Source of the DNA: Kiritimatiellia bacterium
GTDB taxonomy: Bacteria; Verrucomicrobiota; Kiritimatiellia; RFP12; UBA3636
Length of the DNA: 32,353 nucleotides
NCBI GenBank assembly: GCA_045642845.1
Contig: JAZUJQ010000267.1
Coordinates: 1-32,353, forward strand
Direction of reading: 5' to 3'
Shown: positions 7,050-16,422 of the stretch, piece by piece
How the letters are laid out: each line of letters opens with the position of its first letter
Position numbering within the stretch: position 1 is the stretch's first letter
The notes under the pieces: generated by a model
What the model was told of the DNA's origin: nothing
What the model saw: the letters and a program-made list of their open reading frames with translations, nothing else
Databases searched by the model: none
Made by a program: the position numbers and the translations under genes

Positions 7050-8390
7050 CTAATGCGCACGCAGTTCGGACGACGATATGCCGTTCGTCCGCGGCAGACG
7101 CACGACTTGTTTCCCGTGGTCGCGGCACCAGGCCTCGGCGCGTTTGAATCCGGCGTGAATCTGGTCTTCCCCAAGAACTAAAACATCGAAATCGATGCGC
7201 GTTATGGAGTCATCCACATCCGTGTACGGGACGACTTCATCGACATACCGCAGAGCACGGATCATTTTTACGCGGGTGTTCCAGTCGTACACAAGTCTGG
7301 TCTGCGGCTTGTACTTGGTCACCACGGCATCTTCCTGAACGGCGACGACGAGGGCTCCATCCGATCCGGCGATGTCTTTCGCCCGGCGAAAGAGTTCGTG
7401 ATGCCCGTAATGAAGAAGATCGTAAACGCCTACGGTCAGCACCCGTTTGGGACGCTTCATCTTCATTTCGTTCCAGATATCCACGCCGAGTTTGCGCATG
7501 TGTTTCCGATAAGGTTCGTCTGGATCCATCTCGGCTTCGTCATGTCCTGAAAGCCGCTTTTCGACGGGCGGAAGCTGCATGTAGTCTCCGTACTGAACAG
7601 TCAGAACGTCGTCGTATCCGATCGGCACGGGAAAACGGAATCCTTCAAAGTCCATGTCCATGGCCGAGTCGAACGATTCGGCTTTGAAGATATATTTGCG
7701 CCACGGGCTGAAATTGGAAACATTGCACCCCATGCATGCGGTGCGCGCACCGTTGAACTGCGACGCGAGCCGATGGACTTCCCTGTACGCATCTACCGGC
7801 GTGAGCCCGTAATGTTTGCGGAGACTGTCGCGCGCCTTGTCTGTCATGTCGTATCCCGGGATTTTCATGAAAGCCGAACACCAGACGTTCAGATCCAGAA
7901 CTTGATTGTAGAGTTCTTCGGCCTTTTCCGGTATTTGGTTGTCGATCGGCAGGATATCCAGAAAGATTCCGCACGTAAATCCCCAGAAGTGACGGTGCTT
8001 CTCGAAATACGTGGTGTTGGTATTGCGCAATTTCGGATAGGTGAAGGCGTACCCCCTGTCATTGTGCGGCATGGACAGAAAGTACGGCTCCCGGAATTCG
8101 CCGGCGCAACGTATGAATGCCTCGTAATCCTTTCGCGGCATGTAAATGTCTACATCGTCGTCCCAAGGCACGAACCCCTTGTGGCGGACCGCTCCGAGAA
8201 GCGTTCCGTATGTCAGAAAGTAGCGGAGACCGTGCTTTTTGCAGACGGCATCGACCTGCAGAAGCATGTCCAAAAGGATGGCCCAGATTTTTTTGCGCTT
8301 CTCGTCCACGAGAAAGTCGCAGCGAACTTCGGGTTTGAAGAACTCGCGGGGAAGAATTCCCTCGGCGATGATACGGTCGCACTCGGTCAT
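7050..8390 (-). CDS. Fusion protein: N-terminal LicD-family phosphotransferase plus C-terminal TagD-like (HxGH) cytidylyltransferase
   Basis: 446 aa. The LicD core YGTLLGAVRHKGFVPWDDDVDIYMPRKDYE lies in aa 1 to about 285 (about 7536-8390). The cytidylyltransferase domain runs from about aa 316 to the end (about 7053-7445), with TVGVYDLLHYGHHELFRRAK (HxGH) and the C-terminal RTNGISSSELR (RTxGIS-type motif of glycerol-3-phosphate cytidylyltransferases). One uninterrupted frame. Confidence 0.8.
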   Translation of the reverse strand: MTECDRIIAEGILPREFFKPEVRCDFLVDEKRKKIWAILLDMLLQVDAVCKKHGLRYFLTYGTLLGAVRHKGFVPWDDDVDIYMPRKDYEAFIRCAGEFREPYFLSMPHNDRGYAFTYPKLRNTNTTYFEKHRHFWGFTCGIFLDILPIDNQIPEKAEELYNQVLDLNVWCSAFMKIPGYDMTDKARDSLRKHYGLTPVDAYREVHRLASQFNGARTACMGCNVSNFSPWRKYIFKAESFDSAMDMDFEGFRFPVPIGYDDVLTVQYGDYMQLPPVEKRLSGHDEAEMDPDEPYRKHMRKLGVDIWNEMKMKRPKRVLTVGVYDLLHYGHHELFRRAKDIAGSDGALVVAVQEDAVVTKYKPQTRLVYDWNTRVKMIRALRYVDEVVPYTDVDDSITRIDFDVLVLGEDQIHAGFKRAEAWCRDHGKQVVRLPRTNGISSSELRAH

Positions 8391-8436
8391 TAGTGGTCAG
8401 TGGTTGGTGCAGGAAGTAAAGTCCGGATGGATTTTG

Positions 8437-9180
8437 CTATGTGGAAGCGATTGGCTTTTGTTGCAATTTCGCGCTGCTTTTGATGGTGGCACCCTTTTCA
8501 TGCCGTTCATTTTTATCCGGACACGACCCGCCGGCCGCCCTCCGCTTCATCAGCACTTCCACGATCTCAATGTCGTCGGGATGCGTGACCTTGAAAACGG
8601 GACCGCTGTGGAAAGCGTTGTAACCCTTGGCTTCGGTCGGAAGCTGGACCGCCGGATGTCCGTTGGGATGATCGGGATCGAAACAGTCGAGGAGTTCTCG
8701 GAAACGATAGGCGTCCGGAGCCTGGATCAGAAAATAGTCCTCGCGGTCGACTGTCCGGTCTTTGTACGAACCGAGGGCATCTGTGATTTTGATCGCCGTC
8801 TGCACCCAGTCGTATTCGTCCAAAAGTTCCATGTACCGGTCGATCGTCGCCGGTTCGGTGAGCGGACACGCCGCGTTGTTTTCTATTATTTTGGCGCAGT
8901 CCGGAAACTCGCGGGCAATGTAATCCAACGCGTTTTTCAACGACCAGTTGCGAGTTTTGCCGCCGCGCACCGTGCGGACGCCGTACTCGCGCGCGATGCG
9001 TCCGTTTTCGAACTCGTCGGAATTCAGCACGACGACAAAGTCGTCAATGCTCTTCGCGGCACGGAACAATTCGATCGAATACGCGATCATCTCCTTGCCG
9101 AGGATTTTGAAATACTGTTTCGGCATGTTCCCGCCGAAACGGGAGCCTATGCCGCCTGCGAGCACTATACCTATGTTCAT
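8437..9180 (-). CDS. IspD/TarI-family nucleotidyltransferase (alditol-phosphate cytidylyltransferase-like)
   Basis: 247 aa. The N-terminal GIVLAGGIGSRFGGNMPKQY is the signature P-loop of IspD / ribitol-5-phosphate cytidylyltransferase. ATG at 9180. Confidence 0.8.
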   Translation of the reverse strand: MNIGIVLAGGIGSRFGGNMPKQYFKILGKEMIAYSIELFRAAKSIDDFVVVLNSDEFENGRIAREYGVRTVRGGKTRNWSLKNALDYIAREFPDCAKIIENNAACPLTEPATIDRYMELLDEYDWVQTAIKITDALGSYKDRTVDREDYFLIQAPDAYRFRELLDCFDPDHPNGHPAVQLPTEAKGYNAFHSGPVFKVTHPDDIEIVEVLMKRRAAGGSCPDKNERHEKGATIKSSAKLQQKPIAST

Positions 9181-9195
9181 GCCGATTTCCCTACG

Positions 9196-10221
9196 TCAAG
9201 CCACCCTGTGCGGCGGTTGTGTTCCGGCCAAATACGCCGAAAGCGAGGCGATGACCATCTCTGTGCCGCACACCTGAACGTCGCCGGAAGAGCCGGCGAT
9301 GTGGGGCGTAACAATTAGATTCGGAGCGCCGACGAGACATGAATCCGGCGGAATTGGCTCTTTGCGAGTGACATCGATGGCCGCACCCGCGAGATGCCCG
9401 GAACTGAGCGAGTCGACAAGATCTTCCTCGACGACGAGTTCGCCGCGGGCCGAGTTGATGAAATACGCGCCGTTCTTCATTTTCGCGAAGACTTCCTTCG
9501 AAAAGAGTCCGCGCGTTTCGGCGGAGACGCCGCAGTGCACGGTGATGGCGTCTGACTCGGCGAGAAGCCTGTCCCACGACACCGGCTCGACGTAGTCCGG
9601 CTTGCCGTCGAACGTGCTGTACGGATCGTACGCCAGAATCCGCATGCCGAAAGCATGCGCCTTGGGCGCGAGCTGCCGGCCCACGTTTCCGAAGCCGACG
9701 ATGCCGAGTGTCATGGCGTTGAGACTGCGTCCGCGGAAACGTATGAACGGCGAATCGTTGTCCAGCCCCCAGACCGTGTCTTTGTATTCGCCGGGCTTTG
9801 TGCTGACTTCGCCAACCAGAAGTTTCGAATGGATCAGGTTGTTCGTGCGTGTAATGTTGCGCGTCATGTCGATGAGGTACCCCATCACCATGTCGGTTAC
9901 GGCGCCGGCGTTGCGTCCGGCGTTGTTGCAGACCATGATGCCTTTGGTCTTGGCCGCGTCAAGATCGATGACGGTCTTGACGCCGCCTCGACAGCACACG
10001 ATGAATTTCAGTTTCCCGGCGGCATCGAAAACGTCCTTCGAGACCGTATCGTATTCACAGATGAGGATGTCATAGTCCTTCACCTTTTTGACGAGTTCGG
10101 AGTGCGGCATCACGTCGTGATTTAGGATGTAGCCGTCGTAATCGAAATCGATTTTCCCGGCGAAAGCCGATTCAAGCCGTTCGCGGATGACTTCTGCAGT
10201 GACAAGAGATTTGAGTTTCAT
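9196..10221 (-). CDS. D-isomer-specific 2-hydroxyacid dehydrogenase family protein (phosphoglycerate/glycerate dehydrogenase-like)
   Basis: NAD-binding LGIVGFGNVGRQLAPKAHAFGMRILAYDP, and catalytic R/E/H context INSARGELVVEEDL ... VTPHIAGSS. I use the ATG at 10221 (MKLKSLVTAEV...). The track ORF extends to 10593 only as an Arg/Pro-rich read-through overlapping the upstream gene. Confidence 0.85.
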   Translation of the reverse strand: MKLKSLVTAEVIRERLESAFAGKIDFDYDGYILNHDVMPHSELVKKVKDYDILICEYDTVSKDVFDAAGKLKFIVCCRGGVKTVIDLDAAKTKGIMVCNNAGRNAGAVTDMVMGYLIDMTRNITRTNNLIHSKLLVGEVSTKPGEYKDTVWGLDNDSPFIRFRGRSLNAMTLGIVGFGNVGRQLAPKAHAFGMRILAYDPYSTFDGKPDYVEPVSWDRLLAESDAITVHCGVSAETRGLFSKEVFAKMKNGAYFINSARGELVVEEDLVDSLSSGHLAGAAIDVTRKEPIPPDSCLVGAPNLIVTPHIAGSSGDVQVCGTEMVIASLSAYLAGTQPPHRVA

Positions 10222-10241
10222 GATTGATTCTGCGGTTGCCG

Positions 10242-11318
10242 CTATTTGGACGGCATGAGGTTTTTGCGGTACTTTTCGCTTTCCCAGTTGGCTATGAACG
10301 CCTGCGCGGCGGCACCCATCGAGACGAGAGTGCGCCCGGTGCGGCGGACGGCGTCGGCGATGAAAACGATTGCCTCCAGAGTTTCGATGATCACGAGCGC
10401 CTTGGATTCCGGCATACGCAGGAGAATGCGGCCCGTTGCGGGGTCCGCCAGAGCCTGACCATCGCCCGGAATCCCTGAACCGAACGCGAACGAACCGATC
10501 AGGAACACCATCTGATCCGGGTAAAGCGGCTCTTTGAGGAAAAAGCTCTCGGTGTAATCGCCTGACGCTATGCGCGCGGACAAAGCCTCGCAATCCGCCT
10601 CAAACAGTCCCTCCTCCTTCCGTCGGACCGAAACCGCCGGAAAATCCGCTTCCGACACTCCGAACAGCTCGGCAATCCGGCGGTTGGCGTCGGCATGAAG
10701 CCGCAAACACTCGTCTGGATCGTCAGCATGGGCTATGACGCCGTGGTTTTTCATGATGATAACGGCGGGGCGGCGGCCCGTCTCCGCCTCGACGCGCGCG
10801 AGCTCATCACGGATTGCGAATGTGAGTCTGGCGCCGGGATCGACGTACCGGACGATGCCGACCGCGTAGTCGGCGTCGGCGAACGCTTCGCGCACGAGCG
10901 CGTCGCACTCCTCTGAACAGGCGGCGAGATTGGAGTAAACCGCATGACTGTGTGCGACGTATTTATCGAGCAAAGAATGGAATCCGGCTTCGACGGATGG
11001 ACGGCGCGGCGTGAGACCGTCAATGGAACGGATGCACGATTTGGCCTTTTCAGAACCCGACTTTTCCACATCTTCGAAGTCATCCGGAGACGAACCCAGA
11101 TAGAAATCTCGCAGAGCGCGGCCGTCCAGGACTGCATAAGCGTCTGACGGAGTGACGTCTTTCAGCCGGAATCCGGACGCCTTGATGGCCATGAGTCCGT
11201 CGGAAAACTTGGCCGACGTATTGCCTCCGCCGCCCTGGACGTAGTCCGGGCGAGCTCCGACCGCCTGCGAAATGCGAGTGAAGTCTTCGAGAATGGAAAA
11301 ATCTTGCAAAACGTTCAT
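10242..11318 (-). CDS. Class II aldolase/adducin-domain protein (long stand-alone form)
   Basis: GGGGNTSAK near the N-terminus, as in the aldolase halves of bifunctional rhamnulose-1-phosphate aldolase/dehydrogenases. Zn-ligand-like AHSHAVY (HxH) and MKNHGVIA (third His). Start ATG at 11318 (MNVLQDF...); the track start at 11375 is less likely. Confidence 0.7.
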   Translation of the reverse strand: MNVLQDFSILEDFTRISQAVGARPDYVQGGGGNTSAKFSDGLMAIKASGFRLKDVTPSDAYAVLDGRALRDFYLGSSPDDFEDVEKSGSEKAKSCIRSIDGLTPRRPSVEAGFHSLLDKYVAHSHAVYSNLAACSEECDALVREAFADADYAVGIVRYVDPGARLTFAIRDELARVEAETGRRPAVIIMKNHGVIAHADDPDECLRLHADANRRIAELFGVSEADFPAVSVRRKEEGLFEADCEALSARIASGDYTESFFLKEPLYPDQMVFLIGSFAFGSGIPGDGQALADPATGRILLRMPESKALVIIETLEAIVFIADAVRRTGRTLVSMGAAAQAFIANWESEKYRKNLMPSK

Positions 11319-11342
11319 AAAATGTGTCTCAACCGAGGCTGA

Positions 11343-11371
11343 AGTATAGCATAACGCATGGTCCATGACAA
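11343..11371 (-). promoter_or_regulatory. Candidate sigma70-type promoter for the minus-strand block 616-11318
   Basis: The minus strand reads TTGTCA-N17-TATACT with an extended-10 TG (aTGCTATACT), ending about 25 nt upstream of the ATG at 11318. Consensus match by eye only. Confidence 0.35.
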
Positions 11372-11420
11372 ACAACCGCGCGCCCGGACGTTCGATGTCG
11401 GATGTTTTGCCCCGTCTTAT

Positions 11421-11457: not shown

Positions 11458-11703
11458 ATGACGGCCAATCATCTCATCAATGGATTTCTGCGCCGCGTCC
11501 TTTCGCGAATGAAAGAGCTTGGGCTCAATCAATCCGCCTTGGCGCGCAGAATGGGGGTGACTCGTGCCTATGTCACGAAAGTCTTCTCGGGAGACGTGAA
11601 TATTTCGTTCGGCACCGCTCTGAAACTCGCACAAGCCGTGCAGATGGATTTCAGGCCTCAACTGAAGCGTAAAAAAGAATGCAATTCAAAACCAACGGAC
11701 TGA
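11458..11703 (+). CDS. Small XRE/Cro-C1-type helix-turn-helix transcriptional regulator
   Basis: 81 aa. LGLNQSALARRMGVTRAYVTKVFSG is a classic HTH_3-type helix-turn-helix. First gene of the plus-strand block, 13 nt upstream of the DegT gene. Confidence 0.75.
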   Translation: MTANHLINGFLRRVLSRMKELGLNQSALARRMGVTRAYVTKVFSGDVNISFGTALKLAQAVQMDFRPQLKRKKECNSKPTD

Positions 11704-11716
11704 CAGCAGTTTGCGC

Positions 11717-12865
11717 ATGAAAGAAGTGAATCGCCAGATCGAACCGTTCCGTGACCCGATTCTCGTCACCCGTCCGTATCTGCCTCCATTGGCCGATTAC
11801 AGGAAAGGCCTCGAAGAAATATGGAACAATCAGTGGCTCACCAACAACGGCCCGGTTCTCAAAAGGTTCCAAACCGAGTTATCTGAAACCCTGCGCGTGC
11901 CGGTGACGAATCTGTCGTTGTTCAACAACGGAACGCTCGCGTTGGAGATTGTGTTCCAGAGCATGGGACTTGCAGGATCAGAGGTGGTGACCACGCCATT
12001 CACGTTCGTGGCGACATCGCACGCCCTCAAACGCATCGGTGCCGTTCCGGTGTTCGCGGACATCGATCCCGAAACACTCTGCCTGAGCCCGTCCGAAGCA
12101 GAAAAGAAAATCACTTCAAGAACAAAGGCGATCGTTCCGGTCCATGTGTACGGGCATCCGTGCGACGTTGATGGATTCGCCCGCCTCGGCCGCAAATACG
12201 GAATACGGATACTGTACGACGCCGCGCACGCTTTCGGCGTAACGCTCGACGGCAAAGACATCTCCGCCTGGGGTGACGCGAGCATGTATTCTTTCCACGC
12301 CACGAAACTCTTCCACAGCATAGAAGGCGGGCTTTTGGTGTTCCGCGACCCGGAAGTGCAGCAGACCGTGAACAGACTCCGCAATTTCGCGATTCTTTCT
12401 GACACGGAATGCGTCGACGTCGGCACCAACGCGAAAATGAACGAAATGCAGGCGCTCATGGGAGAACTCAATCTCCGCGTTCTGCCTGAACTCATCGCCC
12501 GCCGCAAAGCGGTCTACGGCACCTATGCCGATGCGTTCGCCGGACGCGACGGCATCACCCTGCTTCAGCGTCCGGCTGTCTTCGGCGGATTCGCCGTTGC
12601 GCACAACTACGCATACTGTCCGGTGCTTTTCCGTGATTTCGAGACCCGCGAACGCGTATTCACAAAGCTTCAGGAATTCAATGTGTTCTCGCGACGCTAT
12701 TTCTATCCGTTGCTGACCGACTTCCGCCCGTACATGGACGCCCGAAGAACGTGTCCTGTCGCCGAAGACGCAGCACGCCGCATACTCACCCTCCCAACAT
12801 ACCACGATCTGGATCTCGTCGATGTTCGTAAAATCGCCGAAATCGTTTTGAACGTCGCGGATTGA
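11717..12865 (+). CDS. DegT/DnrJ/EryC1/StrS-family PLP-dependent aminotransferase
   Basis: About 382 aa. SMYSFHATKLFHSIEGGLLVF carries the family's Schiff-base lysine context (SFHxxK...EGG). The N-terminus PILVTRPYLPP is typical. ATG at 11717; the track start at 11711 is a TTG. Confidence 0.9.
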   Translation: MKEVNRQIEPFRDPILVTRPYLPPLADYRKGLEEIWNNQWLTNNGPVLKRFQTELSETLRVPVTNLSLFNNGTLALEIVFQSMGLAGSEVVTTPFTFVATSHALKRIGAVPVFADIDPETLCLSPSEAEKKITSRTKAIVPVHVYGHPCDVDGFARLGRKYGIRILYDAAHAFGVTLDGKDISAWGDASMYSFHATKLFHSIEGGLLVFRDPEVQQTVNRLRNFAILSDTECVDVGTNAKMNEMQALMGELNLRVLPELIARRKAVYGTYADAFAGRDGITLLQRPAVFGGFAVAHNYAYCPVLFRDFETRERVFTKLQEFNVFSRRYFYPLLTDFRPYMDARRTCPVAEDAARRILTLPTYHDLDLVDVRKIAEIVLNVAD

Positions 12866-12872
12866 AAACGCC

Positions 12873-14105
12873 ATGAATACCAAGAAACTCATGCTACTCG
12901 GCGGGTCTCGATACCTGTTCCCTGTCATCAAAAAAGCGCATGAACTGGGACTATACGTAATCACCTGCGATTATCTGCCCGACAACGACGCCCACAAGGT
13001 TTCTGACGAATACGTCAACGTCAGCATCGTCGAAAAAGAGAAGGTGCTGGAAGTCGCCATGGAAAAAGGAGTGTCCGGCATAATGTCGTTCGCCTGCGAC
13101 CCAGGTGTCGTCACCGCAGCCTATGTCGCCGAACGGATGGGGCTTCCATTCCAGTGTTCCTACGAGTCGACATGCATTCTTCAGGACAAGGGACGTTTCC
13201 GCGCGTTTCTTGCGGAGCACGGATTCAACTGCCCGCATGCCCGCAGTTACACGGATCCCGTGGCGCCCATAGCCGATGCGGATTTCTTCACATGGCCCGT
13301 CATCGTCAAACCCGTTGATTCCGCCGGAAGCAAGGGCGTCAGCAAAGTCGATTCGCCGGAAGGTCTTCCAGCGGCTGTGAAAACCGCTTTGGAGAGTTCC
13401 CGCAGCGGCTCGTTCATAGTCGAAGACTTTTTGACGTTTGAAAGCTACCACTCCAGCACCGACCCGTTCACGGTGGACGGTAAACTTTGCGCAGTCTCCT
13501 ATTCGGACCAGCTTTTCGACAAGGAGGCGGACAATCCGTACACACCGGCGTTCATAATCTGGCCCACGACCATGAAGCAGGAGCACCAGGACTATCTGAC
13601 GCGCGAAATACAGCGGCTCATGGACCTGCTGCACGTCGGCACCGGCATCTACAACATCGAGACCTGTGTCGGAGCGGGCGGCATTCCCTACATCATGGAG
13701 GTCTCCCCTCGCGGCGGCGGCTGCAAGATTGCGGAAATGCAGGAACTCGCCTTCGGCGGAAGCCTTATCGAAAACGAGATCCGCAAAGCCGTCGGTATGC
13801 CCCTTGTCCCCGTGGAAACGCACCCCATCCAAGGACATTGGTGCGAAATGGTGGTTCATGCGCGCCCCGGCATGCAGGGCGTGTTCGAGCGTATTGACAT
13901 CCGCGAGGACATCGGGAAGAGCAACGTACGCGTCATCGACATGTCAACGAAACCCGGCGACTACGTGTTTCCGTTCACGGGCGCCAACCGAGCACTCGGC
14001 GACATGTTTCTCCAATTCGCCACACGCGGTGAATTGAACGCCGCGATCGGGAACACGGCGGATTGGCTTGGCATCGTTCTGTCAGAGGAGAAAAGCAATG
14101 GATAG
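12873..14105 (+). CDS. ATP-grasp domain protein (carboxylate-amine ligase-like)
   Basis: 410 aa. WPVIVKPVDSAGSKGVSKV (ATP-binding Lys strand) and YIMEVSPRGGG (E-x-x-x-R-x-G-G-type C-terminal motif). The pre-ATP-grasp N-domain KLMLLGGSRYLFPVIKKAHELG is present. Confidence 0.8.
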   Translation: MNTKKLMLLGGSRYLFPVIKKAHELGLYVITCDYLPDNDAHKVSDEYVNVSIVEKEKVLEVAMEKGVSGIMSFACDPGVVTAAYVAERMGLPFQCSYESTCILQDKGRFRAFLAEHGFNCPHARSYTDPVAPIADADFFTWPVIVKPVDSAGSKGVSKVDSPEGLPAAVKTALESSRSGSFIVEDFLTFESYHSSTDPFTVDGKLCAVSYSDQLFDKEADNPYTPAFIIWPTTMKQEHQDYLTREIQRLMDLLHVGTGIYNIETCVGAGGIPYIMEVSPRGGGCKIAEMQELAFGGSLIENEIRKAVGMPLVPVETHPIQGHWCEMVVHARPGMQGVFERIDIREDIGKSNVRVIDMSTKPGDYVFPFTGANRALGDMFLQFATRGELNAAIGNTADWLGIVLSEEKSNG

Positions 14106-15030
14106 CGCGCCGTTCGCGACCGAGTGCGACAGGCTTGTCGCCGAAGGATCGCTCGATCCAGACTTCCTCAAGCCGGAAACACGCTGCGGTTTTCAGGTGG
14201 ACACGCGAAGAAAACGCCTTTGGGCCGTCCAACTGGACCTTCTGGCGCAATTGGATCGCTTCTGCAAACGTCACGGTCTCCGCTACTGCGCCATCGGAGG
14301 CACCATTCTCGGAGCGCTCCGCCACAGGGGATTCATACCATGGGACGACGACATCGACATCGTCATGCCGCGCGCGGACTACGAAAAACTTCCGTCTCTT
14401 GCCGAAGAATTCACCGGCCCTTATTTTCTTCAGACCCCGGGACGAGACCGCGACTACTTCATATCGCTGTCCAAACTGCGCAACAGCCGCACGGCGCAGG
14501 TCTCAATGACTCTGCGGCACTGCAGTTTCAATCAAGGCGCGCTGATCGACATCATTCCGCTGGATCTCTGGAACAGCCGAAAAGGACGTGAATCGTACGC
14601 ACGGATCAACGAATTGAACGTCGACAACGCCAATTTCATGCGACAGGGATTTCCTAATCCCGATGAAGAGATGCGCCGCCGCATCACGGCATGGTCCGGA
14701 CGCCGCCCCGAAGAAAACCTCGAGGAAATCAACCGCTTGGCCACGCAGTTCTCTGACGATCCCGAGGCGGACGTCGTGACCACGCCAGTCACCACTTTTT
14801 ATCCGTACGACAGGATAATGTTCCCGAAAGAATGCTTCGACTCATTCGTCGAAGTCCCGTTCGAAAACACCGTCATGGCCGTTCCGTCAGGCGCCGAACG
14901 CATACTTGAATTTCAGTTCGGGAACTGGCGTGAATTTCCGCCGCCCGGAAAAAGAGGCGCGTGGCACGGCAATGAAATTTTCGATGCAGATCGTCCGTAT
15001 GAAGCCGTTTTGAAGGATCTGAGGCGATGA
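14098..15030 (+). CDS. LicD-family phosphotransferase (stand-alone paralogue of the N-domain of 7050-8390)
   Basis: GGTILGALRHRGFIPWDDDIDIVMPRADYE. I prefer the ATG at 14098, which is preceded by GAGGAG and overlaps the ATP-grasp stop by 8 nt. The N-terminus ECDRLVAEGSLDPDFLKPETRCGF aligns with ECDRIIAEGILPREFFKPEVRCDF of the fusion protein. Confidence 0.8.
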   Translation: MDSAPFATECDRLVAEGSLDPDFLKPETRCGFQVDTRRKRLWAVQLDLLAQLDRFCKRHGLRYCAIGGTILGALRHRGFIPWDDDIDIVMPRADYEKLPSLAEEFTGPYFLQTPGRDRDYFISLSKLRNSRTAQVSMTLRHCSFNQGALIDIIPLDLWNSRKGRESYARINELNVDNANFMRQGFPNPDEEMRRRITAWSGRRPEENLEEINRLATQFSDDPEADVVTTPVTTFYPYDRIMFPKECFDSFVEVPFENTVMAVPSGAERILEFQFGNWREFPPPGKRGAWHGNEIFDADRPYEAVLKDLRR

Positions 15031-15497
15031 ATGAAAAGCGCGTATATCTCCGTCCGTTGACATCAGATGACGCCACGACGTCATGCCGATGGCGCAACGA
15101 CTCGGAGCTGTGGAAGTACACCGGCAAACGTCCGACGTGCGAAATCACCGAAGCGATGGAACGCGAATGGGTTGGCAAAGTCAATTCAGACCGCACGCGC
15201 ATGAACTTTGCAATCTGCCTCGCCGGAAACGACCGGTACATCGGAAACATCTATGTGGTGAACATCTCGAACGGCACCGGAGAACTCGGCGTATTCATCG
15301 GAGAACGTGATTGCCACGGACAGGGTTATGGAACTGAAGCCGTTCAGTTGCTGAAGGCCGAAGCCAAGGCCGCCGGCGTGAATTCGATCCGCATCAGAGT
15401 TCGACCGGAAAACGCTGCAGCGATCCGTGCATACCAAAAGGCCGGCGCCTCGTTTCTGCCACGCCAATGGATCGAAATGGAGGTTTCCTGTGACTGA
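15027..15497 (+). CDS. GNAT-family N-acetyltransferase (PseH/RimL-like)
   Basis: 156 aa. LRPLTSDDATTSCRWRND (the L-R-P-L..D....WRN opening seen in amino-sugar N-acetyltransferases of the PseH type) and the acetyl-CoA loop HGQGYGTEAVQLL. ATGA overlap with the LicD stop at 15027-15030. Confidence 0.8.
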   Translation: MNEKRVYLRPLTSDDATTSCRWRNDSELWKYTGKRPTCEITEAMEREWVGKVNSDRTRMNFAICLAGNDRYIGNIYVVNISNGTGELGVFIGERDCHGQGYGTEAVQLLKAEAKAAGVNSIRIRVRPENAAAIRAYQKAGASFLPRQWIEMEVSCD

Positions 15498-16422
15498 GGC
15501 CATCGGTGGCTATTTCGGAACCGAGCCCCTGCTTTCATCTCCCGACGGCGAACTTCATCCGGGCGTCCCGACGGTCAACATCGGCCGGTCAGGGCTCAGA
15601 CGGATCATGCAGGTCCGTGACATCCGGCGTCTTTGGATCCCGGACTACAACTGCCGCAGCGTAGTCACTTATCTGAATCTTTGGGAAATCCCTTACGAAA
15701 CATATGCCGTCGACGACGATCTGGAACCCGCGCTGCCGAAATTGTCGCAAGGAGACGCGCTGGTTTACGTGAACTATTTCGGCCTCAAAACCGCCGCTTG
15801 CCGCAGACTGGAAACCTCGAACATCCCATTGATCCTGGATTTGACCCAGGCGTTCTACTATAGACCCCTTCCAGGCACGTTCGCATTTTCAAGCGCGAGG
15901 AAGTTTTTCGGGCTTCCCGACGGAGGATACGTCTTCGGTCTTTCACCGGAAGAAGCGGACCTTCCGGCGTGGGAAATACCCGATGAGTATTTCGCTCCGC
16001 TGCGTTTGCGCGCATCGGGCGACGTCTCCGGAGGATATGCGAAGTTCAAGGAAATAAAATACTACCGGCTGCCGACCGCCGCCGCCAGCGCTTTTTCCCG
16101 CAACGCGATGCAACGCATCGACTATGCCGGTGTCGCCGCACGCCGCCGCGAAAATTTCGCGTTTTACCGCAAACACCTGCAGCCGACGAATCTGGTCCGA
16201 ATGAATCTGGAAAAAGACGATGTCCCGCTCTGCTATCCGTACCGCCCTGCGGCCGAGGCCGCCTCGCTGCGCGCCAAGCTGATCGAACGGTCGATTTTCG
16301 TTCCCATATACTGGCCGAAATGCGACAAGCCCAAATGGATCGATGAAACCATATTTCTGCCTCTTGATCAAAGATACGGTCGGGAAGAAATGCAACGCGT
16401 CATTCAAACGCTGATGGATTAA
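15490..16422 (+). CDS. Short, divergent DegT-like fold-type-I PLP enzyme (function unknown)
   Basis: FAFSSARKFFGLPDGGYVFG mimics the DegT lysine motif (SFxxxK....EGG). IPDYNCRSV ... ALVYVNYFG ... LILDLTQAF follows the strand order of the DegT large domain. The GTG at 15490 is preceded by GGAGG and overlaps the GNAT stop by 8 nt. The track ATG at 15427 would overlap by 71 nt. About 310 aa, shorter than canonical DegT enzymes. Confidence 0.5.
   Translation: MTEAIGGYFGTEPLLSSPDGELHPGVPTVNIGRSGLRRIMQVRDIRRLWIPDYNCRSVVTYLNLWEIPYETYAVDDDLEPALPKLSQGDALVYVNYFGLKTAACRRLETSNIPLILDLTQAFYYRPLPGTFAFSSARKFFGLPDGGYVFGLSPEEADLPAWEIPDEYFAPLRLRASGDVSGGYAKFKEIKYYRLPTAAASAFSRNAMQRIDYAGVAARRRENFAFYRKHLQPTNLVRMNLEKDDVPLCYPYRPAAEAASLRAKLIERSIFVPIYWPKCDKPKWIDETIFLPLDQRYGREEMQRVIQTLMD

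What the first reader, a model, noticed from the sequence alone, without database searches (positions are those of the whole stretch)
11717..16422. Operon of DegT, ATP-grasp, LicD, GNAT and a short DegT-like protein: candidate route to an amide-linked or otherwise non-standard amino substituent
Seen in sequence: five tightly coupled plus-strand genes, with 8-nt, 4-nt and 8-nt overlaps between the last four.

Established knowledge: in Campylobacter jejuni HS:2 capsule biosynthesis, DegT-family PLP enzymes (Cj1436/Cj1437) act on small phosphorylated metabolites to give ethanolamine phosphate and serinol phosphate. An ATP-grasp amidoligase domain (Cj1438) then couples these to glucuronate. So a DegT plus ATP-grasp pair does not have to mean a simple amino-sugar pathway.

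Inference: the ATP-grasp enzyme here may amidate a uronic acid. The SDR at 616-1656 looks like a UDP-glucuronate-utilising type, which is weak support only. Alternatively it may ligate an amino acid to an amino sugar, with one PLP enzyme making the amine. The GNAT (WRN motif, PseH-like) would acetylate a second amino group, and LicD would add a phospho-alcohol.
Basis: partly seen in the sequence, partly recalled or inferred. Interest (0 to 1): 0.6.

Follow-up and report, generated by a model that had tools for sequence, protein, structure and literature searches.

The report
Operon for an amino-acid-decorated amino sugar

Summary
The five genes and their 8/4/8-nt overlaps are real. Cj1438C is a TupA-type ATP-grasp (PF14305) with no similarity to this protein, which has the PurT/PurK/L-amino-acid-ligase fold.

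The DegT is 40-41% identical to the VioA-type aminotransferases of E. coli O121 and O123/O186. In related loci its orthologues sit next to bona fide RmlA/RmlB.

The 'short DegT-like' protein has no Pfam or NCBIfam match. Its model (pLDDT 94.5) has the sugar-aminotransferase fold and keeps the catalytic Lys and Asp. Its family has about 2,500 representatives. It always follows either this ATP-grasp or a WbqC protein.

An unannotated homologue lies in the E. coli O123/O186 cluster, whose sugar is Qui4N carrying N-(3-hydroxybutanoyl)-D-alanyl. None is found in the O121 chromosome, whose sugar carries N-acetylglycyl.

Best reading:
- DegT makes dTDP-4-amino-4,6-dideoxyhexose.
- The ATP-grasp attaches an acid to the new amine.
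- The short PLP enzyme sets or creates the alpha-amino centre.
- The GNAT caps it.
- LicD is a separate add-on.

The chemistry is inferred, not shown. This scan has noted similar cassettes before on other DNA.

The parts
11458..11703 (+). XRE-type HTH regulator gene, possibly the first gene of the operon
   Evidence: Pfam HTH_3 43.6 bits. It ends 13 nt before the DegT start on the same strand.
11717..12865 (+). VioA/DesI-like DegT aminotransferase, predicted to convert dTDP-4-keto-6-deoxy-D-glucose to the dTDP-4-amino sugar
   Evidence: PF01041 292 bits. Best NCBIfam hit is PLP_DesI, 268 bits, below the equivalog cut-off of 650. Best PDB hit is DesI 2po3, E 4e-60. It is 41% identical (E 2e-95) to the E. 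coli O121 DegT and 40% identical (E 3e-99) to the O123/O186 DegT; the SFHATK lysine aligns with that of the O121 DegT.
12873..14105 (+). ATP-grasp carboxylate-amine ligase of the PurT/PurK/L-amino-acid-ligase clade, predicted to acylate the sugar's 4-amino group
   Evidence: Pfam ATP-grasp_3, ATP-grasp_4 and Dala_Dala_lig_C above their cut-offs. Model pLDDT 90.4; Foldseek top hits are 4dim, 3vot (L-amino acid ligase), PurT, PurK, RizA and BacD, TM 0.73-0.81. Nearly always directly after a DesI-like DegT in 23 related loci. Not TupA/Cj1438 type.
14098..15030 (+). LicD-family phosphotransferase, an accessory gene that is not part of the conserved core
   Evidence: PF04991 131 bits. Found with the module only here and in L013/L021, where it is 56% identical. 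40% identical to the LicD part of 7050-8390 on the other strand.
15027..15497 (+). GNAT (Acetyltransf_3, RimJ/RimL-like) N-acetyltransferase, predicted to cap the free amine of the attached residue
   Evidence: PF13302 86.5 bits; PseH model 36 bits, below the cut-off of 93. Homologues follow the fifth-family gene in L005, L010, L011, L013/L021, L015, L018 and L056. Related to the GNATs of L036 (27%, E 3e-15) and of E. coli O123/O186 (24%, E 2e-9).
15490..16422 (+). Short, divergent DegT-fold PLP protein of an undescribed family, predicted to act on the alpha-carbon of the residue attached to the sugar
   Evidence: No Pfam, NCBIfam or PDB sequence hit. Model pLDDT 94.5 with the sugar-aminotransferase fold. 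K138, D117 and R137 are invariant in 49 homologues. hhalign against VioA-like DegTs: probability 95%. About 2,500 representatives at E<=1e-30. Homologue in E. coli O123/O186: 29% identity, E 9e-36; profile E 6.6e-73.

Best explanation
The operon makes a nucleotide-activated 4-amino-4,6-dideoxyhexose whose 4-amino group carries a capped amino acid. It is a gut-bacterial counterpart of the aminoacyl-Qui4N sugars of E. coli O121 and O123.

Proposed steps:
1. RmlA and RmlB, encoded elsewhere in this genome, supply dTDP-4-keto-6-deoxy-D-glucose.
2. The VioA/DesI-like DegT aminates C4.
3. The ATP-grasp activates a small carboxylate, most likely an L-amino acid, as an acyl phosphate and joins it to the sugar's new amine. 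It does the job that WbqC-family proteins appear to do in E. coli.
4. The short PLP protein works on the alpha-carbon of the attached residue. The role I favour is epimerisation to the D-form, because its E. coli homologue goes with a D-alanyl sugar and no homologue was found in the chromosome that makes a glycyl sugar.
5. The GNAT acetylates the residue's free alpha-amine.
6. LicD is an accessory decorator. It adds a phospho-alcohol from a CDP donor made by the divergent cassette at 7050-11375.

Shown here: the gene families, the folds, the conserved gene order, and the homology to the E. coli genes. Inferred: every substrate and the order of steps 3 to 5. I put about 0.65 on the general reading, an acyl or aminoacyl amide on a dTDP-4-amino sugar. 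I put about 0.4 on the version with L-amino-acid ligation followed by epimerisation.
For: DegT:
- DesI is the best match in NCBIfam and PDB.
- It is 40-41% identical over its full length to the DegT of rfbB-rfbA-DegT-WbqC-GNAT in E. coli O121 and to the DegT of the O123/O186 cluster.
- All ten partner DegTs tested score best on the DesI model, at 279-314 bits.
- RmlB above the curated cut-off lies next to the module's DegT in L008 and L014 and within the locus in L016 and L020; RmlA above the cut-off lies in L006 and L014.
- A WecF-family GT56 sits beside the module in L056.
- The window's own genome has RmlA, RmlB and RmlC.

ATP-grasp:
- It has the full three-domain LAL/PurT/PurK fold.
- A DegT lies directly upstream in most of the 23 loci, which span Bacillota, Bacteroidota, Fibrobacterota, Lentisphaerota and Verrucomicrobiota.
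- B. cereus Pat/Pyl is a published case of an aminotransferase plus an ATP-grasp that acylates a UDP-4-amino sugar (title cited in PMC8987622 and PMC11257628).

Fifth protein:
- In loci L036, L038, L056, L057 and L058 and in E. coli O123/O186 it lies directly after a WbqC gene or this ATP-grasp. In L037 it follows a DegT, with WbqC a few genes downstream.
- The same profile finds a 336-bit homologue in the O123/O186-type chromosome and nothing in the O121 chromosome.
- O123 carries N-[(S)-3-hydroxybutanoyl]-D-alanyl on Qui4N. O121 carries N-acetylglycine (PMC7685785).

Capping step: the fifth gene is followed by a GNAT (7 loci), a second ATP-grasp (L001, L007, L020) or a PglD-like N-acyltransferase with KAS III (L006). 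This fits a free amine that needs a cap.

No WbqC was found in this genome.
Against: - No enzyme of this ATP-grasp family or of the fifth family has been assayed, and no glycan structure is known for any host of the module.
- The E. coli comparison rests on two clusters, and E. coli uses WbqC, not this ATP-grasp.
- No racemase or epimerase is known in the DegT family (my own knowledge). By fold, an aminotransferase role is the default.
- The ATP-grasp is far better conserved (53-76% identity) than its DegT (37-63%) or the fifth protein (26-42%). That fits a single universal acid such as 2-oxoglutarate at least as well as an amino acid.
- Some loci have the DegT and ATP-grasp pair without the fifth gene (L017, L019, L022, L035).
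- In the window, LicD and the GNAT lie between the ATP-grasp and the fifth gene, unlike every other locus seen.
- The DegT scores far below NCBIfam's DesI equivalog cut-off.
Confidence: 0.4

Rival explanations
1. Pyl-like variant. The ATP-grasp ligates a 2-oxo acid to the sugar's 4-amine. The acid could be 2-oxoglutarate, which is the aminotransferase's own by-product, or pyruvate. The short DegT-fold protein is a true aminotransferase that turns the 2-oxoacyl amide into an aminoacyl amide such as glutamyl or alanyl. The GNAT then acetylates the new amine.
For: [quoted passage not shown] The fifth protein has the fold and the Lys/Asp of sugar aminotransferases, so transamination is its simplest chemistry. 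This variant gives all four core enzymes a necessary role. One invariant acid would explain the unusually high conservation of the ATP-grasp. Some loci without the fifth gene have an SDR-type oxidoreductase right after the ATP-grasp (L022, L035), which could reduce a 2-oxo group as the 2-hydroxyglutaryl residue of the B. cereus polysaccharide requires (that residue is from my own memory of the paper).
Against: Homology of this ATP-grasp to Pyl could not be tested, because the Pyl sequence could not be obtained. In E. coli O121 a WbqC without any fifth-family partner goes with glycine. The O123 WbqC (38% identical) would therefore have to take a keto acid instead of an amino acid. The nearest solved folds include L-amino acid ligases.
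Confidence: 0.25
2. The ATP-grasp amidates a glucuronate or galacturonate residue with a small amine such as serinol phosphate or ethanolamine phosphate. One of the DegT-fold proteins makes that amine, as in C. jejuni Cj1436, Cj1437 and Cj1438.
For: That chemistry exists (PMC11800397). DegT-family enzymes can act on small phosphorylated metabolites. UDP-glucose dehydrogenase genes occur in three related loci (L006, L011, L020).
Against: Cj1438C is PF14305 TupA-like and unrelated in sequence to this ATP-grasp. The DegT is VioA/DesI-like and linked to RmlA/RmlB. No HAD phosphatase like Cj1435 turned up among the window's proteins scanned. The SDR at 616-1656 is not assignable to UDP-GlcA. No clear Ugd was found in this 79%-complete genome.
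Confidence: 0.04
3. Phospho-amino-alcohol route. One or both PLP proteins make an amino alcohol phosphate or an amino acid phosphate. This is CDP-activated by the cytidylyltransferases on the opposite strand and transferred by LicD. The ATP-grasp and GNAT modify that head group.
For: LicD lies inside the operon. A PGDH-like dehydrogenase and two cytidylyltransferases lie divergently upstream. In L021, LicD is followed by a class V aminotransferase and a cytidylyltransferase.
Against: LicD accompanies the module in only 2 of about 25 contexts. The DegT, ATP-grasp, fifth and GNAT core recurs without any LicD or cytidylyltransferase. The E. coli O123 homologue of the fifth protein works in a cluster that has no LicD.
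Confidence: 0.05
4. The short PLP protein is a second ring aminotransferase, so the product is a diamino sugar. The ATP-grasp acylates one amine and the GNAT acetylates the other.
For: It has a sugar-aminotransferase fold with the catalytic residues. Two N-modifying enzymes are present.
Against: The E. coli O123 sugar made by a cluster that contains a homologue is Qui4N, which has a single ring amine. No ketoisomerase or extra dehydratase accompanies the core module in the window. The protein lacks the N-terminal arm of canonical sugar aminotransferases.
Confidence: 0.05

Closest known systems
[quoted passage not shown]
   Same: The DegT is 40% identical. The 324-aa 'hypothetical protein' is a full-length homologue of the fifth protein (29% identity, E 9e-36; profile E 6.6e-73). 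A related Acetyltransf_3-type GNAT follows it. A Wzx flippase sits beside the module.
   Different: E. coli has a WbqC-family protein where the window has an ATP-grasp. No orthologue of this ATP-grasp is present in the E. coli chromosomes searched, and no WbqC was found in the window's genome. The cap is 3-hydroxybutanoyl, helped by MaoC, not acetyl. There is no LicD. The steps after VioA have not, to my knowledge, been tested biochemically in E. coli either.
E. coli O121 / Shigella dysenteriae type 7 genes rfbB-rfbA-vioA-wbqC-GNAT, for Qui4N carrying N-acetylglycine
   Same: The DegT is 41% identical. The logic is the same: amine, then amide, then N-acetyl cap.
   Different: No fifth-family gene in that chromosome. 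WbqC instead of an ATP-grasp. The GNAT is only marginally similar (21%, E 5e-5).
Bacillus cereus ATCC 14579 Pat/Pyl (UDP-yelosamine; Hwang et al. 2014, J Biol Chem 289:35620)
   Same: A 4-aminotransferase is adjacent to an ATP-grasp that forms an amide on the sugar's new 4-amino group, using ATP.
   Different: The B. cereus sugar is UDP-linked 4-amino-FucNAc and the acid is 2-oxoglutarate. No short PLP protein or GNAT is reported there. Sequence relatedness of Pyl to this ATP-grasp was not testable here.
C. jejuni HS:2 Cj1436, Cj1437 and Cj1438C
   Same: DegT-family enzymes plus an ATP-dependent amide ligase in a capsule locus.
   Different: Cj1438C is a TupA-like ATP-grasp (PF14305) unrelated in sequence. 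It amidates a uronate carboxylate on the growing polymer with a small amine phosphate. The roles of acid and amine are the reverse of those proposed here.
L-amino acid ligases (BL00235 3vot, RizA, BacD/YwfE) and PurT/PurK
   Same: The same three-domain ATP-grasp fold, TM 0.73-0.81. These enzymes use acyl-phosphate chemistry to join a small acid to an amine.
   Different: Only 15-19% identity. Their amine substrates are amino acids or ribonucleotides, not nucleotide sugars.

Membership tests
Cj1438-type (TupA-like) ATP-grasp amidoligase | Match to Pfam PF14305 ATPgrasp_TupA, or sequence similarity to Cj1438C | tested here: not met
   Cj1438C, taken from the supplement of PMC11800397, scores 130 bits on PF14305. 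The window protein has no PF14305 hit at E<=0.01. BLASTP between the two gives a best E of 0.76.
Cj1438-type (TupA-like) ATP-grasp amidoligase | Companion HAD phosphatase (Cj1435-like) and a supply of UDP-glucuronate | tested here: not met
   No HAD-family hit among the window proteins scanned. The SDR at 616-1656 is not a UDP-GlcA-type enzyme. No clear Ugd in the assembly; the genome is 79% complete.
DegT/DnrJ/EryC1/StrS sugar aminotransferases, VioA/DesI subgroup | PF01041 domain with the Schiff-base lysine and the PLP aspartate | tested here: met
   292 bits. SFHATK and YDAAHAFG align with the same motifs of E. coli O121 VioA.
DegT/DnrJ/EryC1/StrS sugar aminotransferases, VioA/DesI subgroup | Equivalog-level score on the NCBIfam DesI model (TIGR04427, cut-off 650 bits) | tested here: not met
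   268 bits. It is the best-scoring model but far below the cut-off. Call the protein DesI/VioA-like, not DesI.
DegT/DnrJ/EryC1/StrS sugar aminotransferases, VioA/DesI subgroup | Genomic link to dTDP-glucose synthesis and 4,6-dehydration (RmlA/RmlB) | tested here: met
   RmlB lies in L008, L014, L016 and L020, and RmlA in L006 and L014. All score above the curated cut-offs and lie beside or close to orthologous DegTs. In the window's genome RmlA and RmlB are on other contigs.
ATP-grasp superfamily, PurT/PurK/L-amino-acid-ligase clade | Pfam ATP-grasp domain above the gathering score, and the three-domain fold | tested here: met
   ATP-grasp_3 31.9 (cut-off 23.2), ATP-grasp_4 28.2 (27), Dala_Dala_lig_C 28.2 (24). 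Model pLDDT 90.4. Foldseek probability 1.0 to 4dim, 3vot, PurT, PurK, RizA and BacD.
Pyl-type UDP-4-amino-sugar:2-oxoglutarate ligase (B. cereus) | Sequence homology to Pyl, and use of 2-oxoglutarate | not testable with these tools
   The paper (PMC4271244) and the Pyl sequence were not obtainable. Only the shared adjacency to a 4-aminotransferase could be seen.
Aminoacyl-Qui4N module of E. coli O123/O186 | Homologues of the DegT, the 324-aa protein and the GNAT | tested here: met
   40% identity, E 3e-99; 29%, E 9e-36 (profile E 6.6e-73); 24%, E 2e-9.
Aminoacyl-Qui4N module of E. coli O123/O186 | WbqC-family protein (PF08889) between the DegT and the 324-aa protein | tested here: not met
   No PF08889 match in the window's genome (79% complete). 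The same model finds WbqC in E. coli O121 at 216 bits. An ATP-grasp occupies that position here.
LicD phosphotransferases | PF04991 domain | tested here: met
   131 bits, covering the full profile. Donor and acceptor are unknown.
PseH (UDP-4-amino-sugar N-acetyltransferase) | NCBIfam TIGR03585 equivalog score (cut-off 93.1 bits) | tested here: not met
   36.4 bits. It is a general Acetyltransf_3 GNAT (86.5 bits).

The most novel reading that the evidence does not exclude
The short PLP protein founds a large, unnamed branch of the DegT fold. It has about 2,500 representatives and no Pfam or NCBIfam model. Its job is not to aminate a sugar ring. It acts on an amino acid already hung on a nucleotide sugar, as a C-alpha epimerase that makes D-aminoacyl sugars. 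That would be a reaction type not known in this fold. With the highly conserved ATP-grasp, it would define the main route by which gut and rumen bacteria of at least five phyla make amino-acid-bearing surface sugars.
Probability: 0.3. Interest if true: 0.7.

Novelty: new variant of a known kind. Interest (0 to 1): 0.5.

Why it matters
Sugars that carry amide-linked amino acids are known antigenic parts of O antigens, as in E. coli O121, O123, O63 and O114. The enzymes that attach and tailor the amino acid have not been characterised, even in E. coli.

This locus ties together three things:
- an ATP-grasp family with more than 8,000 close relatives, mostly from gut and rumen metagenomes;
- a PLP family of about 2,500 representatives that no domain library describes;
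- an unannotated gene in the E. coli O123/O186 cluster, whose product sugar is known.

Together they give a concrete prediction that can be tested in a laboratory organism. They would also allow amino-acid-decorated glycans to be predicted from genomes of gut commensals such as Bacteroides cellulosilyticus and Agathobacter rectalis. If the PLP protein proves to be an aminoacyl-sugar epimerase, it adds a new reaction to the DegT fold.

Tried and rejected
- **Cj1438-type amidoligase.** Rejected after obtaining Cj1438C from a paper supplement.
- **SDR at 616-1656 as a UDP-GlcA enzyme.** Not supported.
- **Sequence searches for the fifth protein and for WbqC.** PDB, Pfam and NCBIfam gave nothing for the fifth protein; a PDB sequence search gave nothing for E. 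coli WbqC. Only structure prediction and profile comparison placed the fifth protein.
- **Literature.** No held paper links an ATP-grasp to Qui4N, Fuc4N, Qui3N or Fuc3N, to viosamine, or to dTDP-sugar aminotransferases, and none mentions WbqC. The Riegert/Raushel papers on Cj1436/Cj1437 and on the amidoligase, Wang et al. 2007 and Hwang et al. 2014 are not held.
- **Comparison with B. cereus Pyl.** Not possible, because the sequence was out of reach.
- **blastn of the ATP-grasp gene against 5,426 E. coli genomes.** No match. A protein-level search of the O121 and O123/O186-type chromosomes found only PurT and CarB.
- **blastn of the O123 fifth-family gene.** It found only 10 genomes, all at 96% identity or more. 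So other serogroups that carry D-amino acids (O63, O110) could not be examined.
- **Promoter and terminator scans.** Nothing above the shuffled expectation.
- **Ring diamination by the fifth protein.** Considered and set aside, because the O123 sugar has one ring amine.

Full report
**1.

Five + strand ORFs lie at 11717-12865, 12873-14105, 14098-15030, 15027-15497 and 15490-16422. Reading the junctions confirms the stated spacing:
- a 7-nt gap between DegT and the ATP-grasp;
- an 8-nt overlap between the ATP-grasp and LicD (ATGGATAG, GAGGAG upstream);
- a 4-nt ATGA overlap between LicD and the GNAT;
- an 8-nt overlap between the GNAT and the fifth gene (GTGACTGA, GGAGG upstream).

Pfam and NCBIfam confirm four of the five names:

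| Gene | Family result |
|---|---|
| DegT | PF01041, 292 bits |
| ATP-grasp | weak but above-threshold ATP-grasp domains |
| LicD | PF04991, 131 bits |
| GNAT | Acetyltransf_3, 86.5 bits; PseH 36 bits, below its cut-off of 93 |

The fifth protein hits nothing in Pfam, NCBIfam or PDB sequences. An XRE-type HTH gene ends 13 nt before DegT on the same strand. The next gene downstream is convergent.

**2. The fifth protein really is a short DegT-fold PLP protein**

- Forty-nine homologues (30-42% identity, nearly all unnamed) share invariant K138, R137 and D117. They also share an N-terminal IGGYFG.E motif.
- The AlphaFold model (pLDDT 94.5) matches DesV, AtmS13, WbpE, ArnB, WecE and other sugar aminotransferases. 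Foldseek probability is 1.0, TM about 0.6, identity 14-19%.
- A profile-profile comparison with VioA-like DegTs gives probability 95%, E 2.8e-8.
- That comparison aligns 'LDLTQAF' with 'YDAAHAF' and 'SARKFFGLPDGG' with 'HATKLFHSIEGG'. It shows that about the first 65 residues of a canonical DegT are missing.
- The family is large: 2,496 representatives at E<=1e-30 among 1.84 billion 50%-identity clusters.

**3. The ATP-grasp is not a Cj1438-type amidoligase**

I took the Cj1438C sequence from that paper's supplement.
- Cj1438C scores 130 bits on PF14305 (TupA-like ATP-grasp).
- It has no BLASTP similarity to the window protein; the best E is 0.76.
- The window protein shows no PF14305 hit.

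Instead the window protein is closest to an L-amino acid ligase (3vot), PurT and PurK by sequence. Its model (pLDDT 90.4) superposes on 4dim, 3vot, PurT, PurK, RizA and BacD at TM 0.73-0.81. These enzymes activate a small carboxylate as an acyl phosphate and pass it to an amine.

**4. The DegT is a VioA/DesI-like dTDP-sugar 4-aminotransferase**

- DesI is its best NCBIfam model (268 bits, below the equivalog cut-off) and its best PDB match (2po3, E 4e-60).
- It is 41% identical (E 2e-95) to the DegT in rfbB-rfbA-DegT-WbqC-GNAT of E. coli O121.
- It is 40% identical (E 3e-99) to the DegT of the O123/O186 cluster.
- All ten DegTs that partner this ATP-grasp elsewhere also score best on the DesI model, at 279-314 bits.
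- In L008 and L014 a bona fide RmlB lies directly beside the DegT, and L016 and L020 carry one close by. L006 and L014 carry a bona fide RmlA. All of these score above the curated cut-offs.
- L056 has a WecF-family GT56 next to the module.
- The window's own genome, a 2.0-Mb MAG that is 79% complete, encodes RmlA, RmlB and RmlC on other contigs.

The SDR at 616-1656 gives only 81 bits on the dTDP-glucose dehydratase model and cannot be called a UDP-glucuronate enzyme.

**5. A conserved, mobile module**

I collected 18 genome loci and several metagenome loci. Their order is [Wzx flippase]-DegT-ATP-grasp-fifth, with GNAT and LicD as optional additions. It recurs in:
- Agathobacter, Ruminococcus, Butyrivibrio and Lachnospiraceae;
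- Bacteroides cellulosilyticus DSM 14838 and Muribaculaceae;
- Fibrobacter;
- Candidatus Spyradenecus (Lentisphaerota);
- a Verrucomicrobia MAG.

Identity to the window proteins differs sharply between genes:

| Protein | Identity to the window's copy |
|---|---|
| ATP-grasp | 53-76% |
| DegT | 37-63% |
| Fifth protein | 26-42% |

The ATP-grasp is patchy among the window's own relatives: one 49%-identical orthologue in 18 genomes of the same family. L013/L021 carries all five genes in a different order (DegT, ATP-grasp, fifth, GNAT, LicD), with its own aminotransferase and cytidylyltransferase after LicD. LicD is therefore an add-on. It is seen with the module only there and in the window. RefSeq names relatives only 'ATP-grasp domain-containing protein'.

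**6. What the fifth protein keeps company with**

I started from homologues of the fifth protein in environmental genomes. Their contexts are:
- DegT-WbqC-fifth-GNAT (Hymenobacter, L036);
- DegT-WbqC-fifth (L038, L058);
- WbqC-fifth-...-GNAT (L057);
- GT56-DegT-ATP-grasp-fifth-GNAT-flippase (L056);
- DegT-fifth, with WbqC a few genes downstream (L037).

In L036, L038, L056, L057 and L058 its start touches or overlaps the stop of the WbqC or ATP-grasp gene. So WbqC and this ATP-grasp are alternative upstream partners of the same PLP protein.

What follows the fifth gene is an N-capping enzyme in most loci:
- a GNAT in 7 loci;
- a second ATP-grasp in L001, L007 and L020;
- a PglD-like N-acyltransferase with KAS III in L006.

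**7. A natural comparison in E. coli**

| | O121 cluster | O123/O186 cluster |
|---|---|---|
| Gene order | rfbB-rfbA-DegT-WbqC-GNAT | rfbB-rfbA-wzx-DegT-WbqC-'hypothetical protein' (324 aa)-GNAT-MaoC |
| Group on Qui4N | N-acetylglycine (PMC7685785) | N-[(S)-3-hydroxybutanoyl]-D-alanyl (Perepelov et al. 2010, title cited in PMC7685785) |
| Fifth-family gene | none found | present |

The 324-aa protein is a full-length homologue of the fifth protein: 29% identity, E 9e-36, and profile E 6.6e-73. The same profile finds it at 336 bits in the O123/O186-type chromosome and finds nothing in the O121 chromosome. So the fifth family goes with a chiral D-residue, and no member is found where the residue is glycine. 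Neither chromosome has an orthologue of the window's ATP-grasp. The window's genome has no detectable WbqC.

**8. Mechanism**

The proposed pathway has five steps.
1. DegT makes dTDP-4-amino-4,6-dideoxyhexose.
2. The ATP-grasp joins a small acid to that amine.
3. The short PLP protein acts on the alpha-carbon of the new residue.
4. The GNAT, an Acetyltransf_3 type, caps the free amine. RimJ and RimL, which acetylate N-terminal residues, belong to that family (my own knowledge).
5. LicD separately adds a phospho-alcohol, using a donor from the divergent cassette at 7050-11375.

For step 3 I favour epimerisation of an L-aminoacyl residue to the D-form. The E. coli contrast points that way. A fold-type-I PLP enzyme that racemises amino-acid amides is also known, namely alpha-amino-epsilon-caprolactam racemase (my own knowledge).

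The main rival copies B. cereus Pat/Pyl. There an ATP-grasp ligates 2-oxoglutarate to a UDP-4-amino sugar. Here the PLP protein would then transaminate the 2-oxo group. That rival fits both the aminotransferase fold and the striking conservation of the ATP-grasp. I could not test homology to Pyl.

All substrates are inferred. I give about 0.65 to the general reading and about 0.4 to the epimerase version.

**9. Novelty**

The kind of pathway, an aminoacyl amide on a 4-amino sugar, is known from O-antigen chemistry and from Pat/Pyl. This version replaces WbqC with an uncharacterised ATP-grasp family and includes an undescribed PLP family. It is therefore a new variant of a known kind.

Earlier notes of this scan describe similar cassettes in other genomes, so this is not the scan's first sighting. 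Two of those notes gave me leads, to O123/O186 and to Pat/Pyl. I checked the first fully. For the second I could confirm only the citation.

Noticed in passing
window 11458-11703 (+): An XRE-type HTH gene (HTH_3, 43.6 bits; HigA-antitoxin-like, 35 bits) ends 13 nt before the DegT start. It may be the operon's first gene and its regulator.
   Followed up: partly
L021 12666-16143 (Ca. Spyradenecus): The same five genes occur in the order DegT, ATP-grasp, fifth, GNAT, LicD. They are followed by a class V aminotransferase, a small CTP_transf_like cytidylyltransferase and a hexapeptide transferase. That looks like a self-contained donor pathway for LicD.
   Followed up: no
L034 (Brachyspira hyodysenteriae plasmid pBhyoB78, NZ_CP016085.2): The 32-kb plasmid carries a 36%-identical relative of this ATP-grasp together with three TupA-like 'ATP-grasp fold amidoligase' genes, a DegT, a radical SAM enzyme and rhamnan-synthesis genes. 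Both kinds of amide ligase are in one glycan locus.
   Followed up: no
L007 10174-13714 (Fibrobacter) and L001 3829-6166: After the fifth gene come a second ATP-grasp, an MR/MLE enolase-superfamily protein (the family that contains dipeptide epimerases) and an octopine-dehydrogenase-like protein. This suggests longer, opine-like or peptide-like side chains on the sugar.
   Followed up: partly
L006 10093-12149 (Ca. Spyradenecus): Here the fifth gene is followed by a PglD-like N-acyltransferase, a 76-aa ORF and a KAS III. This resembles the machinery needed for a 3-hydroxybutanoyl cap like that of E. coli O123.
   Followed up: partly
window 12873-14105 compared with loci L003-L020: The ATP-grasp stays 53-76% identical across five phyla, while the adjacent DegT drops to 37-45%. 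In L004 the values are 73% and 38%. Either the ligase is under unusually strong constraint or it moves independently of its neighbour.
   Followed up: partly
window 15490-16422 compared with L013: Against the Ca. Spyradenecus five-gene set, the fifth protein is only 33% identical while the other four are 51-75% identical. Its gene also sits in a different position. The window's copy may have been acquired separately.
   Followed up: no
L048 8806-9780 (E. coli 2013C-3513, NZ_CP027555.1): The O123/O186 O-antigen cluster gene annotated 'hypothetical protein' (WP_001206706.1) belongs to the short DegT-fold PLP family. It is present at 96% identity or more in 10 of 5,426 complete E. coli genomes.
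   Followed up: yes
G000 contigs C203, C204, C413: RmlB is on C203, and RmlA and RmlC are on C204. The only NDP-sugar dehydrogenase found (C413) is just 25% identical to a bona fide Ugd.
   Followed up: partly
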